DNA from: Escherichia phage vB_EcoS-G3B1 | Reading direction: 5' to 3' (one strand) | DNA: 51,299 bases | Sequence record: MZ234033.1 | Shown: positions 28,968-46,838 of the stretch, piece after piece | Position numbering within the stretch: position 1 is the stretch's first letter | Layout: the number at the start of each line of letters is the position of its first letter | Notes under the pieces: model-generated | Databases searched by the model: none | What the model was told of the DNA's origin: nothing | Seen by the model: the letters and a program-made list of their open reading frames with translations, nothing else | Translations under genes and position numbers: made by a program

Positions 28968-30023
28968 ATGAGTGATTTTAACGCCTACACTAGCGAAGAA
29001 ATGAGCAACGAGCTTTATCATGATCCTAACGCGTGGACTGCTGAATATGTCAGCGGTTCCAGCCTAGCGGAGATTTACAGCACTTGCCCGGCGTACTGGA
29101 AGTACAAGCCGCGCCAGGAAACTAAGGCACTTGTTTTCGGTACGCAGTCGCATACCAACTTTGAAAGCAAGGAGCTATTCGAAAAAACATATCGCCGCGC
29201 ACCGTCGCAGGATGATTTTAAAGATCTGATCACTAGTCAAACGGCGTTAGCATCAAAGCTGAAATCTTTTGGCCTGAAAGGTACAACGGGTAAACAATAC
29301 CCTGAATTACTGGAAATGCTGTACAAGTGCGGCGAGGATCTCAATGTGTGGTGGCTTATCGAAATGATGGCAGAATGCCAGGCCGCAGCGGACGGAGTGC
29401 AGTTAATAGACGCTAAAGATTATGATGCCTGTGTAGCGATGCGGCGCGTACTTGAGGCCATACCGGAGCATAACGCTTGCATGAACAGCCCAACCGCGCA
29501 GCGTGAAATGTCAATATTTGGGATCATCAACGGCGTAAAAGTAAAAGTGCGTCTTGATCACGTTGACGTAAACAAGGATGTAAAGGCAACAATCATTAAC
29601 GGTTACGACGAAAAAGGCAGGCCGATTTATGAAGAAGTCACCTATCCAGAAGCGGTGATTATCACTGACTACAAAACAACGGTTAGCGCAAATCCGGTTG
29701 ACTTCCAGCGCCTGGCTTACAATCACGGCTATTATCTTAAAATGGCTTTGCAACATGACTTATTCAAAAAGGCTTATCCAGACGAGGAAAGGCCAGTAAT
29801 TGTAAGATTGCTTGCGCAGGAGAAGAAAGAGCCTTACTTGCCGCTTGCTTTCCGCATGAATATTGAGCAATTGAAGATCGGGCGCATCCAGTACATGAGC
29901 GTGATCAACAAGTTCAACGTTTGCCAGCAGTTAGACGAATGGCCTTCGTATGCAAACGGGCAACCGGAAATTGATCTTGATACTCCTGATTGGGTTCGTG
30001 CTCAATTCAGGCATTATCTTTGA
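28968..30023 (+). CDS. Exonuclease (RecE/PD-(D/E)XK-like, putative)
   Basis: 351 aa first gene of recombination module; IITDYK motif; followed by Erf and SSB genes. Confidence 0.45.
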   Translation: MSDFNAYTSEEMSNELYHDPNAWTAEYVSGSSLAEIYSTCPAYWKYKPRQETKALVFGTQSHTNFESKELFEKTYRRAPSQDDFKDLITSQTALASKLKSFGLKGTTGKQYPELLEMLYKCGEDLNVWWLIEMMAECQAAADGVQLIDAKDYDACVAMRRVLEAIPEHNACMNSPTAQREMSIFGIINGVKVKVRLDHVDVNKDVKATIINGYDEKGRPIYEEVTYPEAVIITDYKTTVSANPVDFQRLAYNHGYYLKMALQHDLFKKAYPDEERPVIVRLLAQEKKEPYLPLAFRMNIEQLKIGRIQYMSVINKFNVCQQLDEWPSYANGQPEIDLDTPDWVRAQFRHYL

Positions 30024-30356: not shown

Positions 30357-31013
<657 letters not shown>

Positions 31014-31018
31014 TAAAC

Positions 31019-31038
31019 GGGGCGCTTGCGCCCCTTTT
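31019..31038 (+). terminator. Hairpin plus short T-run
   Basis: GGGGCGCTTGCGCCCC then TTTT. Confidence 0.4.
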
Positions 31039-31056
31039 GTCATAGGAGAAAACAAA

Positions 31057-31515
31057 ATGCACGTTATTACAGGTGAGATTCGAAAAGAGCCAAAAGTAAA
31101 GCAAATGCCTAACGGCAGCACGCTATATGTTATTGAGCTTTCCGAACGATACAAAGACCGAGAAGGAAATTGGCAGTATACAAACTATGTGTTTTTCTTT
31201 AACGCGAAAACAGACGGCCTGAATGGTTGGTATGCCGAGGCGTTCCAGGTAGGCAAGGTTGTTTCTGTTTCCTGCGATACCTTGCGAGTTGAAACGCGAG
31301 AATACAACGGAAAGATTTACAGCACCGTGCAGCCTGGCGGATTTGCAAACTTGCTATTTAGCCAGAGAGGTGAAAGCCAGCAACAATATCAGCAGCGAAC
31401 GCAAGGAGGCTGGTGGCAACCACAACAGCAACAGCAACAGCAACAAAATACTCAACAGCAGCCGCAGCAAAGCAATCAGCCTCCGATTGACTTTGACGAC
31501 GATATACCATTCTGA
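31057..31515 (+). CDS. ssb: Single-stranded DNA-binding protein
   Basis: Gln-rich tail and acidic C-terminal tip DFDDDIPF characteristic of SSB; RBS AGGAGAAAACAAA. Confidence 0.8.
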   Translation: MHVITGEIRKEPKVKQMPNGSTLYVIELSERYKDREGNWQYTNYVFFFNAKTDGLNGWYAEAFQVGKVVSVSCDTLRVETREYNGKIYSTVQPGGFANLLFSQRGESQQQYQQRTQGGWWQPQQQQQQQQNTQQQPQQSNQPPIDFDDDIPF

Positions 31516-38618: not shown

Positions 38619-38657
38619 CAATAACACGAGATTGCTTTTAATAGCGGAGAAATGAAA

Positions 38658-39383
38658 ATGGCTAAAGATATTTTAGATAAAGACACACATGACGCATTCG
38701 TTAGCTTTGAGCAGTTGGAGAGAGAAACGTTTATAGGAAATGCTCTTGCAACTGGAGGCCATTACCAGGCAGTAAAGCCAAATCAATATTATAAGGTAAG
38801 CGGCAACCGATACGCTGGAAGCACTACGCCGGACGTTGTGCGCGATATGTGGAGCACACCTCAAGAGATCGTGGAGTGGATGGAATCAGAATTTGGCGAA
38901 TACGATCTCGACGCGGCAGCAAGCCATGAAAACGCAGTTTGCGAGAAGTTCTATAGCAAGGAAACAAACTGCTTAAAGCGTTGGTGGGGTAGCAACAAGC
39001 ACGTATGGCTTAACCCGCCGTACAGCAACCCAACGCCATTTATCAAGAAAGCAATTGAGCAAATGGAGCACAACAACCAAATTGATGTTTTGCTGCCTGC
39101 CGACAATTCCACGGCCTGGTTTTATGAGGCGCAGAAAAACGCGGCTGAAATCATCTGGATCACTGGAGAAGTTTACGAAGAGGGGGGAGTGGAATATTCC
39201 CGCACCGGAAGAATCGCCTTTGTGTCTGGATTGACTGGCGAGCCTGTACAGGGCAACAATAAGGGAAGCGTGATTTTTGTCATGCGCAAACTTAAAGAAG
39301 GCGAGGAGCAGAAAACGCGATACGTTAAGATCAGCGATATTTGCCCCTCTGTAACCGAACGCCGCGCGCGCAAACGGAGCTAA
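38658..39383 (+). CDS. dam: DNA N6-adenine methyltransferase (phage Dam-like)
   Basis: Catalytic NPPY motif (VWLNPPYSN); ATG 38658 chosen over 38652. Confidence 0.75.
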   Translation: MAKDILDKDTHDAFVSFEQLERETFIGNALATGGHYQAVKPNQYYKVSGNRYAGSTTPDVVRDMWSTPQEIVEWMESEFGEYDLDAAASHENAVCEKFYSKETNCLKRWWGSNKHVWLNPPYSNPTPFIKKAIEQMEHNNQIDVLLPADNSTAWFYEAQKNAAEIIWITGEVYEEGGVEYSRTGRIAFVSGLTGEPVQGNNKGSVIFVMRKLKEGEEQKTRYVKISDICPSVTERRARKRS

Positions 39384-45689: not shown

Positions 45690-45744
45690 TTCGATGTGAT
45701 TATGCCAGGTTTTTACACCTGGCTTTTAACAAAAAGTGCTATTT
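45690..45744 (-). promoter_or_regulatory. Cassette motif + hairpin + CATAAT + CACATCGAAC leader (minus)
   Basis: Minus-strand AAATAGCACTTTTTGTTAAAA, hairpin GCCAGGTGTAAAAACCTGGC, CATAATCACATCGAACAAAC. Confidence 0.55.
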
Positions 45745-46455
45745 TGAGTTTGACTCAAATACGGCGCGAGCAAATCCGCGCGGAGTGAGGGAGCGGATCA
45801 TCTTTGTGCGTGATGAATTGCCGCCAGTTTTGGCCCACCCTGGATTATCTTTGTCTTTCTCTTTCGGCAGGATTAAAGCGCGTGGAGGAATAACAAAGCC
45901 GTTGCCAGTCCAGAGGCATGTTTTCTTAAAGTAGCGATCCCGCGCCGGAATAATATCAGGGAAGTCGGGATGTTTATCATCTTCCGGCAGATAGCCAGCG
46001 TAATCGCACGGATGGAACGTATAATCAGGCTTTCGCCATAACGTTGACAACTTGCCAACCGGATTTTCGATCATGTATGGAACACCGAAATAATCAGCTA
46101 TATCAGCCGCGATCCTGCAAGTGTCTGCGGCCTCATCCTGGAAAGATGGATTTTTAAGGCGCTTTTTAGCCCAATGGCGAGATCCGCTATTTGCAAGGTC
46201 GGTGCATGGTGGGAAGGCCATAATAAAATCAGGATTGCCCCACTCATTATTGATTGCCTTAACATAAAAAGCATCATCAATCCAGACGTTAACGTATTCG
46301 ATATTCTCATGCTGTATGCGCACTGACTGGTAATCACCGTGATCGCCGCCGTCAGCATTAAAGCAAATGCACTTATAGCCATTATCAGCCCAATCTTTAA
46401 CGGCTTTACCAGATCCATCAAATAGGGAGAATATTAAACCTTTATACATCGTCAT
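45739..46455 (-). CDS. Minimal C5-cytosine-methyltransferase-like protein (no obvious target-recognition domain)
   Basis: Motif I-like FSLFDGSG, PC dipeptide in MAFPPCTDLANSG, ENV-like MIENPVG, C-terminal RSLTPRGFARA; only about 238 aa. Confidence 0.4.
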   Translation of the reverse strand: MTMYKGLIFSLFDGSGKAVKDWADNGYKCICFNADGGDHGDYQSVRIQHENIEYVNVWIDDAFYVKAINNEWGNPDFIMAFPPCTDLANSGSRHWAKKRLKNPSFQDEAADTCRIAADIADYFGVPYMIENPVGKLSTLWRKPDYTFHPCDYAGYLPEDDKHPDFPDIIPARDRYFKKTCLWTGNGFVIPPRALILPKEKDKDNPGWAKTGGNSSRTKMIRSLTPRGFARAVFESNSK

Positions 46456-46459
46456 TACC

Positions 46460-46684
46460 TCAAAACGGAAAACAGCGTGGACAACTAGGATCAAAATCGC
46501 ATCCACAATCATTAACAATCATAGTGGGATCTGCAAATATTGCGCTTGATTCAAGATCCATATCCATATCACCTAAAGCCTCATCAAGAGTCTTAATTTT
46601 ATATGCCACTTCAAGCGCCGCCTCTTTATTTAGTCCGGCATCTTCTGCCATTTGAAGGCGTTCAAAAAATCCGTCTTGACTCAT
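46460..46684 (-). CDS. Small acidic Cys-cluster protein (74 aa)
   Basis: D/E-rich with C-terminal CGCDFDPSCPRC; translationally coupled to neighbours. Confidence 0.5.
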   Translation of the reverse strand: MSQDGFFERLQMAEDAGLNKEAALEVAYKIKTLDEALGDMDMDLESSAIFADPTMIVNDCGCDFDPSCPRCFPF

Positions 46685-46797
46685 CGCATAATCCCCTTAA
46701 TAACAGCCAAGATAATAGCTAGGCCAGCAGCAGTAACCAAAAAACCAACCGCGCCAATAATCGAATAAAAAAAGAAATCAATAGCTTTATCTATCAT
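46681..46797 (-). CDS. Small hydrophobic peptide (38 aa)
   Basis: RBS GAGGTGGAA before ATG 46797; hand translation MIDKAIDFFFYSIIGAVGFLVTAAGLAIILAVIKGIMR; ATGA overlap with next gene. Confidence 0.3.
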   Translation of the reverse strand: MIDKAIDFFFYSIIGAVGFLVTAAGLAIILAVIKGIMR

Positions 46798-46838
46798 TTC
46801 CACCTCATTTAAAAGGCGGCAAAACGCCGCCAGATTAA

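What the first reader, a model, noticed from the sequence alone, without database searches (positions are those of the whole stretch)
45739..46797. Minimal C5-methyltransferase-like protein co-transcribed with an acidic Cys-cluster protein and a 38-aa membrane peptide
The 238-aa protein carries elements resembling C5-cytosine methyltransferase motifs I, IV, VI and IX/X but is too short to contain a normal target-recognition domain and has PCT in place of the usual PCQ. It is translationally coupled to an acidic 74-aa protein ending CGCDFDPSCPRC and a hydrophobic peptide. This could be a nonspecific or partner-dependent DNA/RNA cytosine-modifying enzyme, a possible anti-restriction or novel modification module in addition to Dam.
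Basis: inference. Interest (0 to 1): 0.65.

Follow-up and report, generated by a model that had tools for sequence, protein, structure and literature searches.

The report
Known phage Dcm-like cytosine methyltransferase
This is the small stand-alone DNA cytosine-5 methyltransferase that T1-like coliphages are already known to carry (an 89%-identical copy has been shown to make 5-methylcytosine and to set off the retron Ec86 defence), so the enzyme is ordinary; the only fresh lead is the small acidic neighbour protein, whose conserved tail resembles the tip of the SSB protein.

Summary
On the minus strand lie a 38-aa membrane peptide (46797-46681), an acidic 74-aa Cys-cluster protein (46684-46460) and a compact C5-methyltransferase (46449-45739). 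They are joined by an ATGA overlap and a 10-nt gap.

The window is a Warwickvirus (Drexlerviridae). The enzyme is 100% identical to deposited phage proteins. It is 89% identical to Bas06 KarlJaspers 'Dcm-like C5 cytosine methyltransferase'. A close KarlJaspers strain (K42) encodes a Dcm that, expressed alone, puts 5mC on retron Ec86 msDNA and triggers that defence (Wang et al., Cell Rep 2024). The mutated residues C82, E128, K175 and K176 are all present here.

The enzyme is not partner-dependent. About 1,500 phage records carry it and only about 450 carry the 74-aa protein. T1 has the small protein but no dcm.

Indirect evidence favours CCWGG as the target.

The side lead is the 74-aa family. 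It always ends in [F/I]P[F/W], and in T1 in DDYIPW. The phage SSB ends in DDDIPF.

Verdict: already known, low interest.

The parts
45739..46449 (-). Orphan Dcm-like DNA cytosine-5 methyltransferase, 236 aa. An alternative ATG at 46455 would give 238 aa. Motif I is FDGSG (10-14), the catalytic Cys is C82 in PPCTD, ENP is at 128-130, the minimal recognition region spans about 148-212 (includes K175/K176), and motif IX-like RSLTPRGFA lies at 219-227.
46460..46684 (-). 74-aa acidic protein (16 D/E against 5 K/R, pI 4.05). It has an N-terminal helical domain (AGLN..E...VAY...LDEALGDMDMD.ES), an acidic linker, a Cys4 cluster (CGC-x5-CxxC) and a conserved C-terminal tip FPF. The family is restricted to Drexlerviridae and its function is unknown.
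   Evidence: ORF. phrog_9323 E 2e-37, unknown function. 449 phage records. Alignments and tail variants. AF2 pLDDT 69.6, helices 6-37 and the rest coil. No structural match.
46681..46797 (-). 38-aa single-pass membrane peptide (MIDKAIDFFFYSIIGAVGFLVTAAGLAIILAVIKGIMR). Its stop overlaps the start of the 74-aa gene as ATGA. Function unknown.
   Evidence: It is conserved at 49-100% amino-acid identity in 102 phage records, including KarlJaspers. In Hanrivervirus it is 51% identical with the length and the ATGA overlap kept, and unrelated TM peptides sit at the same position in other lineages. No PHROG or Pfam hit.
46815..46831 (-). Terminator-like GC-rich hairpin (GGCGGCGTTTTGCCGCC followed by TTTT). 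It lies between the upstream 75-aa gene and the peptide ORF, and is followed by the SD GAGGTGG of the peptide.
   Evidence: 7 pairs, 6 G-C. The sequence is shown. It is present in the closest IMG/VR relatives L010 and L011.
46450..46462 (-). Coupling junction TGAGGTAATGACG. The stop codon of the 74-aa gene is embedded in the Shine-Dalgarno sequence of the methyltransferase gene.
   Evidence: In phage K42, escapers of retron Ec86 carried a point mutation 9 bp upstream of the dcm start, which falls in this element.
31006..31515 (+). Context only: the phage SSB, whose C-terminus is ...IDFDDDIPF (the canonical SSB-Ct tip). It is used for comparison with the tail of the 74-aa protein.
   Evidence: C-terminal scan: 3 of 348 ORFs end this way. 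(PF00436 below cutoff; phrog_44 SSB).
38625..39380 (+). Context only: the open frame containing the phage Dam (N6-adenine) methyltransferase, which is the second methylase of this genome.
   Evidence: NPPY. (PF05869 E 1.5e-61).

Best explanation
The 236-aa gene encodes a stand-alone (orphan) phage DNA cytosine-5 methyltransferase of the compact 'Dcm-like' family (PHROG 757). It is carried by Drexlerviridae and by many other enterobacterial phages.

Mechanism, inferred from the established C5-MTase chemistry:
- SAM is bound by motif I (FDGSG).
- The target cytosine is flipped out.
- The Cys82 thiolate (PPCT) attacks C6 while Glu128 (ENP) protonates N3.
- The methyl group goes to C5.
- A short recognition region of about 65 residues (148-212, including K175/K176) contacts the DNA, much as in DNMT3A/B.

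The enzyme works without the two small neighbours.

Its most likely target is CCWGG in phage DNA. That would give self-protection against cytosine-sensitive restriction regardless of the host's Dcm status. This step is inferred, not shown.

A documented consequence is that it also methylates the CCTGG-bearing stem-loop of retron Ec86 (Eco1) msDNA. That activates the retron's effector, so this phage should be sensed by that defence.

The 74-aa acidic protein and the 38-aa membrane peptide are co-translated, lineage-specific early genes with separate functions that are still unknown.
For: Identity and synteny:
- The window is about 98% identical to Warwickvirus phages.
- The protein is 100% identical to a deposited one.
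- It is 89% identical to Bas06 KarlJaspers Dcm, with the same peptide, 74-aa and dcm order.

Experiment on the orthologue (final paper cited):
- Four K42 escapers of retron Ec86 all hit the 711-bp dcm or its upstream region.
- Dcm alone from pBAD is toxic only when Ec86 is present.
- LC-MS shows high 5mC on msDNA with wild-type Dcm, but not with the C82A/E128A/K175A/K176A mutant.
- All four of those residues are conserved here.

Fold:
- AF2 pLDDT 89.8.
- Foldseek top hits are DNMT3B/3A at E about 1e-6.

Family:
- 2,061 homologues.
- 1,163 cluster representatives at 50% identity, mostly 210-260 aa.
- A natural fusion to a D12 adenine methyltransferase.

Independence from the neighbours:
- dcm occurs without the small protein in Dhillonvirus, in genomes of about 137-166 kb (e.g. 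FV3, ESCO13, kaaroe), and in Vibrio and Arthrobacter phages.
- T1 has the small protein but no dcm.
- L054 keeps the Cys4 protein although dcm has been replaced by an HNH-like ORF.

Specificity:
- The recognition region is as conserved as the core in 62 representatives at 31-57% identity.
- CCWGG (138 sites, O/E 1.08) and GATC (313 sites, O/E 1.02) are at expectation, while many other restriction palindromes are absent.
- The nanopore-only assembly of the related phage 2019SD1 miscalls every CCWGG: 0 in 50 kb, and 0 of 54 aligned sites intact.
- Mutating CC in the msDNA CCTGG abolishes defence.
Against: - No methylation data exist for this phage itself.
- The sequence specificity of the family has never been measured directly. 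The K42 authors assumed CCWGG by analogy with host Dcm.
- In dcm+ MG1655 without the phage enzyme, msDNA carried little 5mC. So the phage enzyme does something host Dcm does not, through a different site, a different substrate form, or simply more activity.
- The 2019SD1 signal could come from the Shigella host's own Dcm.
- Pfam PF00145 and NCBIfam give no hit. A profile search against PDB sequences reaches only E 0.16, so membership of the canonical family rests on fold and motifs.
- BASEL found no simple relation between methylase genes and restriction resistance, so the protective role is unproven.
Confidence: 0.85

Rival explanations
1. Partner-dependent module: the 74-aa Cys-cluster protein is a zinc-binding specificity or regulatory subunit of the methyltransferase, and the trio acts as one modification unit.
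For: - Tight translational coupling.
- In 81 loci, every small-protein variant with a Cys4 cluster has dcm 7-244 nt downstream, with the single exception of L054. The two lineages without Cys (Tunavirus, Nouzillyvirus) have dcm elsewhere, 407 nt away, or not at all.
Against: - K42 Dcm alone methylates msDNA and triggers Ec86.
- About 1,500 phage records carry the enzyme and only about 450 carry the small protein.
- Dhillonvirus and large myoviruses have dcm without it.
- T1 keeps the small protein without dcm.
- L054 keeps the Cys4 form after losing dcm.
- The co-occurrence rests on few independent lineages and is confounded by phylogeny.
Confidence: 0.08
2. The enzyme is a DNA C5-methyltransferase, but its target is not host-Dcm-like CCWGG. 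With its minimal recognition region it may read a shorter or different motif, or prefer hairpin or single-stranded DNA.
For: - The recognition region is only about 65 residues, in a DNMT3-like fold that reads 2 bp in DNMT3.
- msDNA in dcm+ MG1655 is poorly methylated until the phage enzyme is expressed.
- The authors mention toxicity of Dcm itself.
- The specificity was assumed, not measured.
Against: - All CCWGG sites, and no other obvious motif class apart from homopolymers, are miscalled in the native-DNA nanopore assembly of 2019SD1.
- CCWGG is not avoided in this genome, whereas CCSGG (3 sites against 20 expected) and many palindromes are.
- ACTGG and CATGG variants of the msDNA site both abolish triggering.
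Confidence: 0.15
3. It modifies RNA (DNMT2-like), or transfers a group other than methyl (for example carboxymethyl from Cx-SAM, as in PDB entry 8yf3).
Against: - LC-MS on the orthologue detected 5mC in DNA, dependent on C82, E128, K175 and K176.
- A natural fusion partner is a DNA adenine methyltransferase.
Confidence: 0.03
4. For the 74-aa protein alone: it is a DNA-mimic anti-restriction protein (Ocr/ArdA-like) rather than an SSB-tail mimic or a methylase partner.
For: It is very acidic (16 D/E against 5 K/R, pI 4.05). It sits in an early-gene position next to a methylase.
Against: - It has no similarity to any known family or fold.
- Half of the protein is predicted coil.
- The most conserved elements are a helical N-domain and a C-terminal [F/I]P[F/W] tip, not a charge array.
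Confidence: 0.12

Closest known systems
Phage K42 / KarlJaspers (Bas06) Dcm, the trigger of retron Ec86 (Eco1) (Wang et al., bioRxiv 10.1101/2023.08.16.553469; Cell Rep 2024 43:114857)
   Same: Same length (236 aa, 711 bp) and 89% identity to Bas06 bas06_0055. It has the same catalytic and DNA-binding residues (C82, E128, K175, K176), the same gene order (peptide, 74-aa, dcm, then a 128-aa gene, a 73-aa gene and the helicase) and the same SD junction that was mutated in escapers.
   Different: Different genus (Warwickvirus against Hanrivervirus). There are 25 amino-acid differences, and nothing has been tested on this allele.
Mammalian DNMT3A/DNMT3B catalytic domains
   Different: Identity is only 16-19%. 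There are no regulatory domains and no DNMT3L-type partner. The enzyme is 50 residues shorter. Oligomeric state and target motif are unknown.
E. coli Dcm / M.EcoRII (CCWGG C5-methyltransferases, Pfam PF00145)
   Same: Same chemistry, and probably the same target motif.
   Different: There is no detectable sequence relationship through Pfam or NCBIfam. The protein is roughly half the size of host Dcm (size recalled from general knowledge, not measured here). The name 'Dcm' is functional shorthand, not orthology.
SSB C-terminal tip (SSB-Ct, DDDIPF), for the 74-aa neighbour
   Same: The family always ends in a hydrophobic residue, then Pro, then an aromatic residue at or next to the C-terminus, after an acidic stretch. 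T1 has ...DDYIPW, ESCO41 has ...FDDGIPF, and this phage has ...DFDPSCPRCFPF. The phage's own SSB ends ...DFDDDIPF. The SSB-Ct hexapeptide is defined in PMC5872125.
   Different: There is no OB fold. In this phage the DDD run is replaced by a Cys4 cluster. Webervirus forms carry an extra residue after PF (IPFW). No binding data exist.

Membership tests
DNA cytosine-5 methyltransferases (class I SAM-MTase fold, C5 subtype) | C5-MTase three-dimensional fold | tested here: met
DNA cytosine-5 methyltransferases (class I SAM-MTase fold, C5 subtype) | Motif I (FxGxG) SAM-binding loop | tested here: met
   FDGSG at 10-14. G12, S13 and G14 are invariant, and F10 and D11 nearly so, in 45 homologues.
DNA cytosine-5 methyltransferases (class I SAM-MTase fold, C5 subtype) | Motif IV Pro-Cys with the catalytic cysteine | tested here: met
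   P81-C82 is invariant. It aligns to the PC of DNMT3B. C82A is part of the inactive mutant of the orthologue.
DNA cytosine-5 methyltransferases (class I SAM-MTase fold, C5 subtype) | Motif VI (ENV) glutamate | tested here: met
   E128-N129-P130 is invariant.
DNA cytosine-5 methyltransferases (class I SAM-MTase fold, C5 subtype) | Motifs VIII, IX and X in the canonical order | tested here: inconclusive
   WRKPD (138-142) and RSLTPRGFA (219-227) are conserved and resemble motifs VIII and IX. No separate GNxV-type motif X follows before the protein ends at 236.
DNA cytosine-5 methyltransferases (class I SAM-MTase fold, C5 subtype) | Match to the curated family HMM (Pfam PF00145 or NCBIfam) | tested here: not met
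   No hit at E<=1 in Pfam or NCBIfam. None of 10 longer relatives hits PF00145. A profile search against PDB sequences gives E 0.16.
DNA cytosine-5 methyltransferases (class I SAM-MTase fold, C5 subtype) | Forms 5-methylcytosine in DNA | not testable with these tools
   Reported for the K42 orthologue by LC-MS. The nearest available sequence (Bas06) is 89% identical. Not measured for this protein.
PHROG 757 / phage 'Dcm-like' compact methyltransferases | Full-length match to the family profile, with family-typical size | tested here: met
   E 4.3e-85, residues 2-237 against profile 11-219 of 247. Relatives are mostly 210-260 aa.
PHROG 757 / phage 'Dcm-like' compact methyltransferases | Orthology and synteny with the characterised Bas06/K42 gene | tested here: met
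   Same flanking genes and 89% identity.
Host-type Dcm (CCWGG-specific, EcoRII family) | Sequence homology to E. coli Dcm | tested here: not met
   No PF00145 or NCBIfam hit. The closest solved structures are DNMT3, not bacterial RM methylases.
Host-type Dcm (CCWGG-specific, EcoRII family) | Methylates the inner C of CCWGG | tested here: inconclusive
   Indirect only. CCWGG is not avoided. All CCWGG sites are miscalled in the native nanopore assembly of the related 2019SD1. msDNA CCTGG mutants lose triggering. Host Dcm is a confounder.
SSB-Ct-bearing proteins or mimics (74-aa neighbour) | C-terminal acidic run followed by I-P-F with a free carboxylate | tested here: inconclusive
   The tip [F/I/M/V]-P-[F/W] is conserved in essentially all 80 loci. 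The acidic run is present in the T1-type protein but replaced by Cys4 here. Some forms end in PFW or PFL.
SSB-Ct-bearing proteins or mimics (74-aa neighbour) | Binds SSB-interacting proteins | not testable with these tools
   No multimer prediction or binding assay is available.

The most novel reading that the evidence does not exclude
The enzyme itself is known, but the 74-aa protein translationally coupled to it may be a previously unrecognised SSB-tail mimic. It would be a small helical domain carrying an acidic linker and a C-terminal [F/I]-P-[F/W] tip like the DDDIPF of SSB. In this lineage the tip would be presented on a Cys4 (probably zinc) knuckle.

Such a protein could plug or redirect SSB-interacting host proteins (ExoI, RecQ, PriA and others) or the phage's own DUF3987 helicase.

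The Cys4 form may have co-evolved with an adjacent dcm.

Separately, the true sequence specificity of this DNMT3-like minimal methylase is still unmeasured.
Probability: 0.25. Interest if true: 0.6.

Novelty: already known. Interest (0 to 1): 0.22.

Why it matters
The methyltransferase adds little. It confirms that this Warwickvirus carries the Dcm-like enzyme that T1-like phages use to methylate their DNA, and which retron Ec86 exploits as an infection signal. This phage is therefore predicted to be Ec86-sensitive.

Two things are practically useful. First, the family is invisible to Pfam and NCBIfam, so annotation pipelines mislabel or over-extend it. Second, its specificity has never been measured directly.

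The 74-aa neighbour is a cheap, testable lead. If its conserved tail really mimics the SSB C-terminus, it would be a new way for a phage to interfere with, or borrow, the host SSB interaction network.

Tried and rejected
- Pfam and NCBIfam scans of all three proteins gave nothing.
- phmmer and profile searches against PDB sequences gave only sub-threshold DNMT3B similarity.
- The 74-aa model was of modest confidence (pLDDT 69.6), and its Foldseek search found nothing meaningful (best E 3.3).
- Pfam on longer family members, looking for informative fusions, found only one (a D12 adenine methylase). The N-terminal extensions of the others are unassigned.
- I tested whether CCSGG depletion tracks dcm across Drexlerviridae. 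It does not. It is bimodal by lineage: zero in Warwickvirus- and Hanrivervirus-like loci, and 10-17 per 6 kb in other dcm-positive loci. I therefore dropped it as evidence about the enzyme.
- I first read the CCWGG-free genome of 2019SD1, with its broken dcm, as natural site purging after gene loss. I rejected that when the differences turned out to be motif-centred miscalls and indels in an unpolished Albacore/Canu nanopore assembly.
- The final Cell Reports paper is not in the library, so I used the preprint and later citations.
- Literature searches for a known phage SSB-Ct mimic found none.
- I did not look for a Cx-SAM synthase gene in the window.
Full report
**What is there**

The window is a T1-like coliphage genome of the genus Warwickvirus (Drexlerviridae, Tempevirinae). 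The region is about 98% identical to phages tunus, XY3 and ExeQuayColi.

Three ORFs lie head to tail on the minus strand:
- a 38-aa hydrophobic peptide (46797-46681);
- a 74-aa acidic protein (46684-46460);
- a compact methyltransferase-like protein ending at 45739.

The peptide stop and the 74-aa start overlap as ATGA. The 74-aa stop TGA is embedded in the GAGG Shine-Dalgarno sequence of the third gene.

Two in-frame ATGs would give 238 or 236 aa. Several observations favour 236 aa:
- the spacing from the SD to the second ATG;
- the start positions of homologues;
- the Bas06 annotation;
- the 711-bp gene described for phage K42.

Many GenBank records instead over-extend the gene to 257 aa, overlapping the 74-aa gene.

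A terminator-like hairpin (46831-46815) sits immediately upstream of the trio.

The 74-aa protein ends ...CPRCFPF, not ...CPRC.

**What the large protein is**

Pfam and NCBIfam give no hit, which explains why it looked unusual. Other evidence identifies it clearly:
- PHROG 757 'DNA methyltransferase' matches over the full length at E 4e-85.
- More than 2,000 homologues exist.
- There are 1,163 cluster representatives at 50% identity, nearly all 210-260 aa.
- It occurs in about 1,500 phage records: Drexlerviridae, Dhillonvirus, large genomes of about 137-166 kb, and Vibrio and Arthrobacter phages.

FDGSG (motif I), P81-C82 (motif IV) and E128-N-P (motif VI) are invariant. The stretch between motif VIII and the motif IX-like RSLTPRGFA is only about 65 residues. 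This is a DNMT3-sized recognition region.

One relative is fused to a D12 adenine methyltransferase.

**What is already known about it**

BASEL phages annotate this gene as 'Dcm-like C5 cytosine methyltransferase'.

Wang et al. (bioRxiv 2023; Cell Rep 2024, cited) worked with K42, a strain of KarlJaspers. They reported:
- All four escapers of retron Ec86 disrupted this gene or its upstream region: one deletion removing dcm, one frameshift in dcm, and two point mutations 9 bp upstream of its start.
- Dcm expressed alone is toxic only in the presence of Ec86.
- msDNA gains 5mC (by LC-MS) with wild-type Dcm, but not with the C82A/E128A/K175A/K176A mutant.
- 34 of 35 Ec86-sensitive phages encode it.

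The protein here is 89% identical to Bas06 Dcm. It has the same length, all four residues and the same flanking genes. The enzyme is thus a known, characterised kind. Its exact sequence is already deposited (100% identical in ExeQuayColi).

**Is it partner-dependent?**

The evidence says no.
- The orthologue works alone.
- Only about 450 phage records, all of Drexlerviridae size and naming, carry the 74-aa family, against about 1,500 carrying the enzyme.
- Dhillonvirus has dcm between a helicase and a homing endonuclease, with no small protein.
- T1 has the small protein but no dcm anywhere in its genome.
- One Webervirus-like contig keeps the Cys4 protein although dcm has been replaced by an HNH-like ORF.

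One residual pattern remains. Across 81 loci, Cys4-bearing variants have dcm 7-244 nt downstream. Cys-less variants (Tunavirus, Nouzillyvirus) have it about 3 kb upstream, 407 nt away, or not at all. This rests on few independent lineages, so I keep a functional link at low probability.

**Specificity**

The K42 authors assumed CCWGG by analogy with host Dcm. They showed that changing either C of the msDNA CCTGG abolishes defence.

1. The recognition region is as conserved as the catalytic core in 62 representatives at 31-57% identity. This suggests one family-wide specificity.
2. This genome has purged many restriction palindromes: AAGCTT, AGCGCT, GGCGCC and GGATCC are absent, and CCSGG has 3 sites against 20 expected. 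It keeps CCWGG (138 sites, O/E 1.08) and GATC (313 sites, O/E 1.02) at expectation. Those are the two motifs that its Dcm-like enzyme (if CCWGG-specific) and its Dam would cover.
3. The RefSeq genome of the related Hanrivervirus 2019SD1 contains no CCWGG in 50 kb (67 expected). None of 54 CCWGG sites in congeneric loci is intact in it; they appear as CACGG, C--GG or CCSGG. That genome came from native DNA on ONT R9.4, with Albacore and Canu and no polishing. Systematic miscalling at Dcm-methylated CCWGG is a known artefact of that generation of basecallers (my background knowledge). The pattern therefore implies near-complete modification of CCWGG in virion DNA. The remaining indels are in homopolymers.

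There are caveats. Host Dcm could contribute. In dcm+ MG1655, msDNA was poorly methylated until the phage enzyme was expressed, so the phage enzyme is not simply redundant with host Dcm. A relaxed or different specificity remains possible at about 15%.

**The two small neighbours**

The membrane peptide is a real gene. It is conserved in 102 records. At 51% identity in Hanrivervirus it keeps the same length and the ATGA overlap, and unrelated single-TM peptides occupy the same slot in other lineages. Its function is unknown.

The 74-aa protein (pI 4.05) has:
- a conserved helical N-terminal domain;
- an acidic linker;
- an optional Cys4 cluster;
- a near-invariant C-terminal [F/I/M/V]-P-[F/W] tip.

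In T1 the tail is ...NEDVDDYIPW and in ESCO41 it is ...FDDGIPF. The phage SSBs end ...DFDDDIPF (this window, 31006-31515) and ...TFDDDIPF (T1). DDDIPF is the SSB-Ct motif that docks SSB onto its partner proteins (PMC5872125).

Only 3 of 348 ORFs of 40 aa or more in the window end this way, and one of them is SSB.

I propose, as inference only, that this family presents an SSB-like tip. I found no report of such a phage protein. The model has no structural match.

**Verdict**

The methyltransferase reading is right. The 'novel, nonspecific or partner-dependent module' reading is not supported, and the enzyme is already known and characterised. Interest is low for the finding as stated. The SSB-tail resemblance of the 74-aa protein and the unmeasured specificity of this Pfam-invisible family are the only points worth follow-up.

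Noticed in passing
L083 (NC_049820.1, Shigella phage 2019SD1) 1-50000; also L045: This RefSeq genome has zero CCWGG in 50 kb (67 expected). None of the 54 aligned CCWGG sites of congeneric phages is intact in it; they are replaced by CACGG, C--GG, CC-GG or CCSGG. Frameshifts break dcm, the 74-aa gene and the tape-measure gene. The paper states native-DNA ONT R9.4 sequencing with Albacore and Canu and no polishing, so these are methylation-induced basecalling errors. The record is unreliable at every CCWGG, and it accidentally reports full CCWGG modification of the virion DNA.
   Followed up: yes
window, whole genome (CCSGG sites at 29087, 39666 and 47206): There is strong restriction-site avoidance. 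AAGCTT, AGCGCT, GGCGCC and GGATCC are absent (15-22 expected each). TCCGGA occurs once and CTGAAG twice. CCSGG has 3 sites against 20 expected, whereas T1 has 65. CCWGG and GATC are at expectation. The CCSGG depletion is bimodal among related lineages and does not track dcm.
   Followed up: partly
window 31006-31515 (+) and 46460-46684 (-): The phage SSB ends in the canonical DFDDDIPF. The 74-aa acidic protein family ends in a similar conserved tip (FPF here, DDYIPW in T1, IPFW in Webervirus), which suggests an SSB C-terminal-tail mimic.
   Followed up: partly
phage collection records MG0656xx ('Campylobacter phage' A120, C4, C5, C9, A13a and others): Some 20-39 records named Campylobacter jejuni phages match this T1-like coliphage region at 80-90% DNA identity, or match genomes of up to 128 kb that resemble large coliphages such as FV3. 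They are unannotated and look like mis-attributed enterobacterial phages.
   Followed up: no
L001 (MN781674.1), with hits H8-H10, H155-H158: Annotation noise has propagated among relatives. The 74-aa gene is called 'putative cytosine DNA methylase', the 75-aa upstream gene 'polyribonucleotide nucleotidyltransferase', and the membrane peptide 'translocation/assembly module TamB'. dcm is over-extended to 257 aa, overlapping the 74-aa gene.
   Followed up: partly
L054 3232-3798: In one Webervirus-like IMG/VR contig, the slot that normally holds dcm just downstream of the Cys4 small protein is occupied by a 188-aa Cys/His-rich HNH-like ORF. This indicates replacement of the methylase by a homing-endonuclease-type gene.
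   Followed up: partly
P0239 (563 aa): This is a natural fusion of the compact Dcm-like domain (N-terminal part) with a D12-class N6-adenine DNA methyltransferase (PF02086, residues 303-546).
   Followed up: no
L061, L065-L073, L075, L079 (Tunavirus-like IMG/VR loci): In T1 relatives that do carry dcm, the gene lies about 2.7-3.2 kb upstream of the small acidic protein instead of directly downstream. T1 itself lacks it. dcm has therefore moved or been re-acquired within Drexlerviridae.
   Followed up: partly
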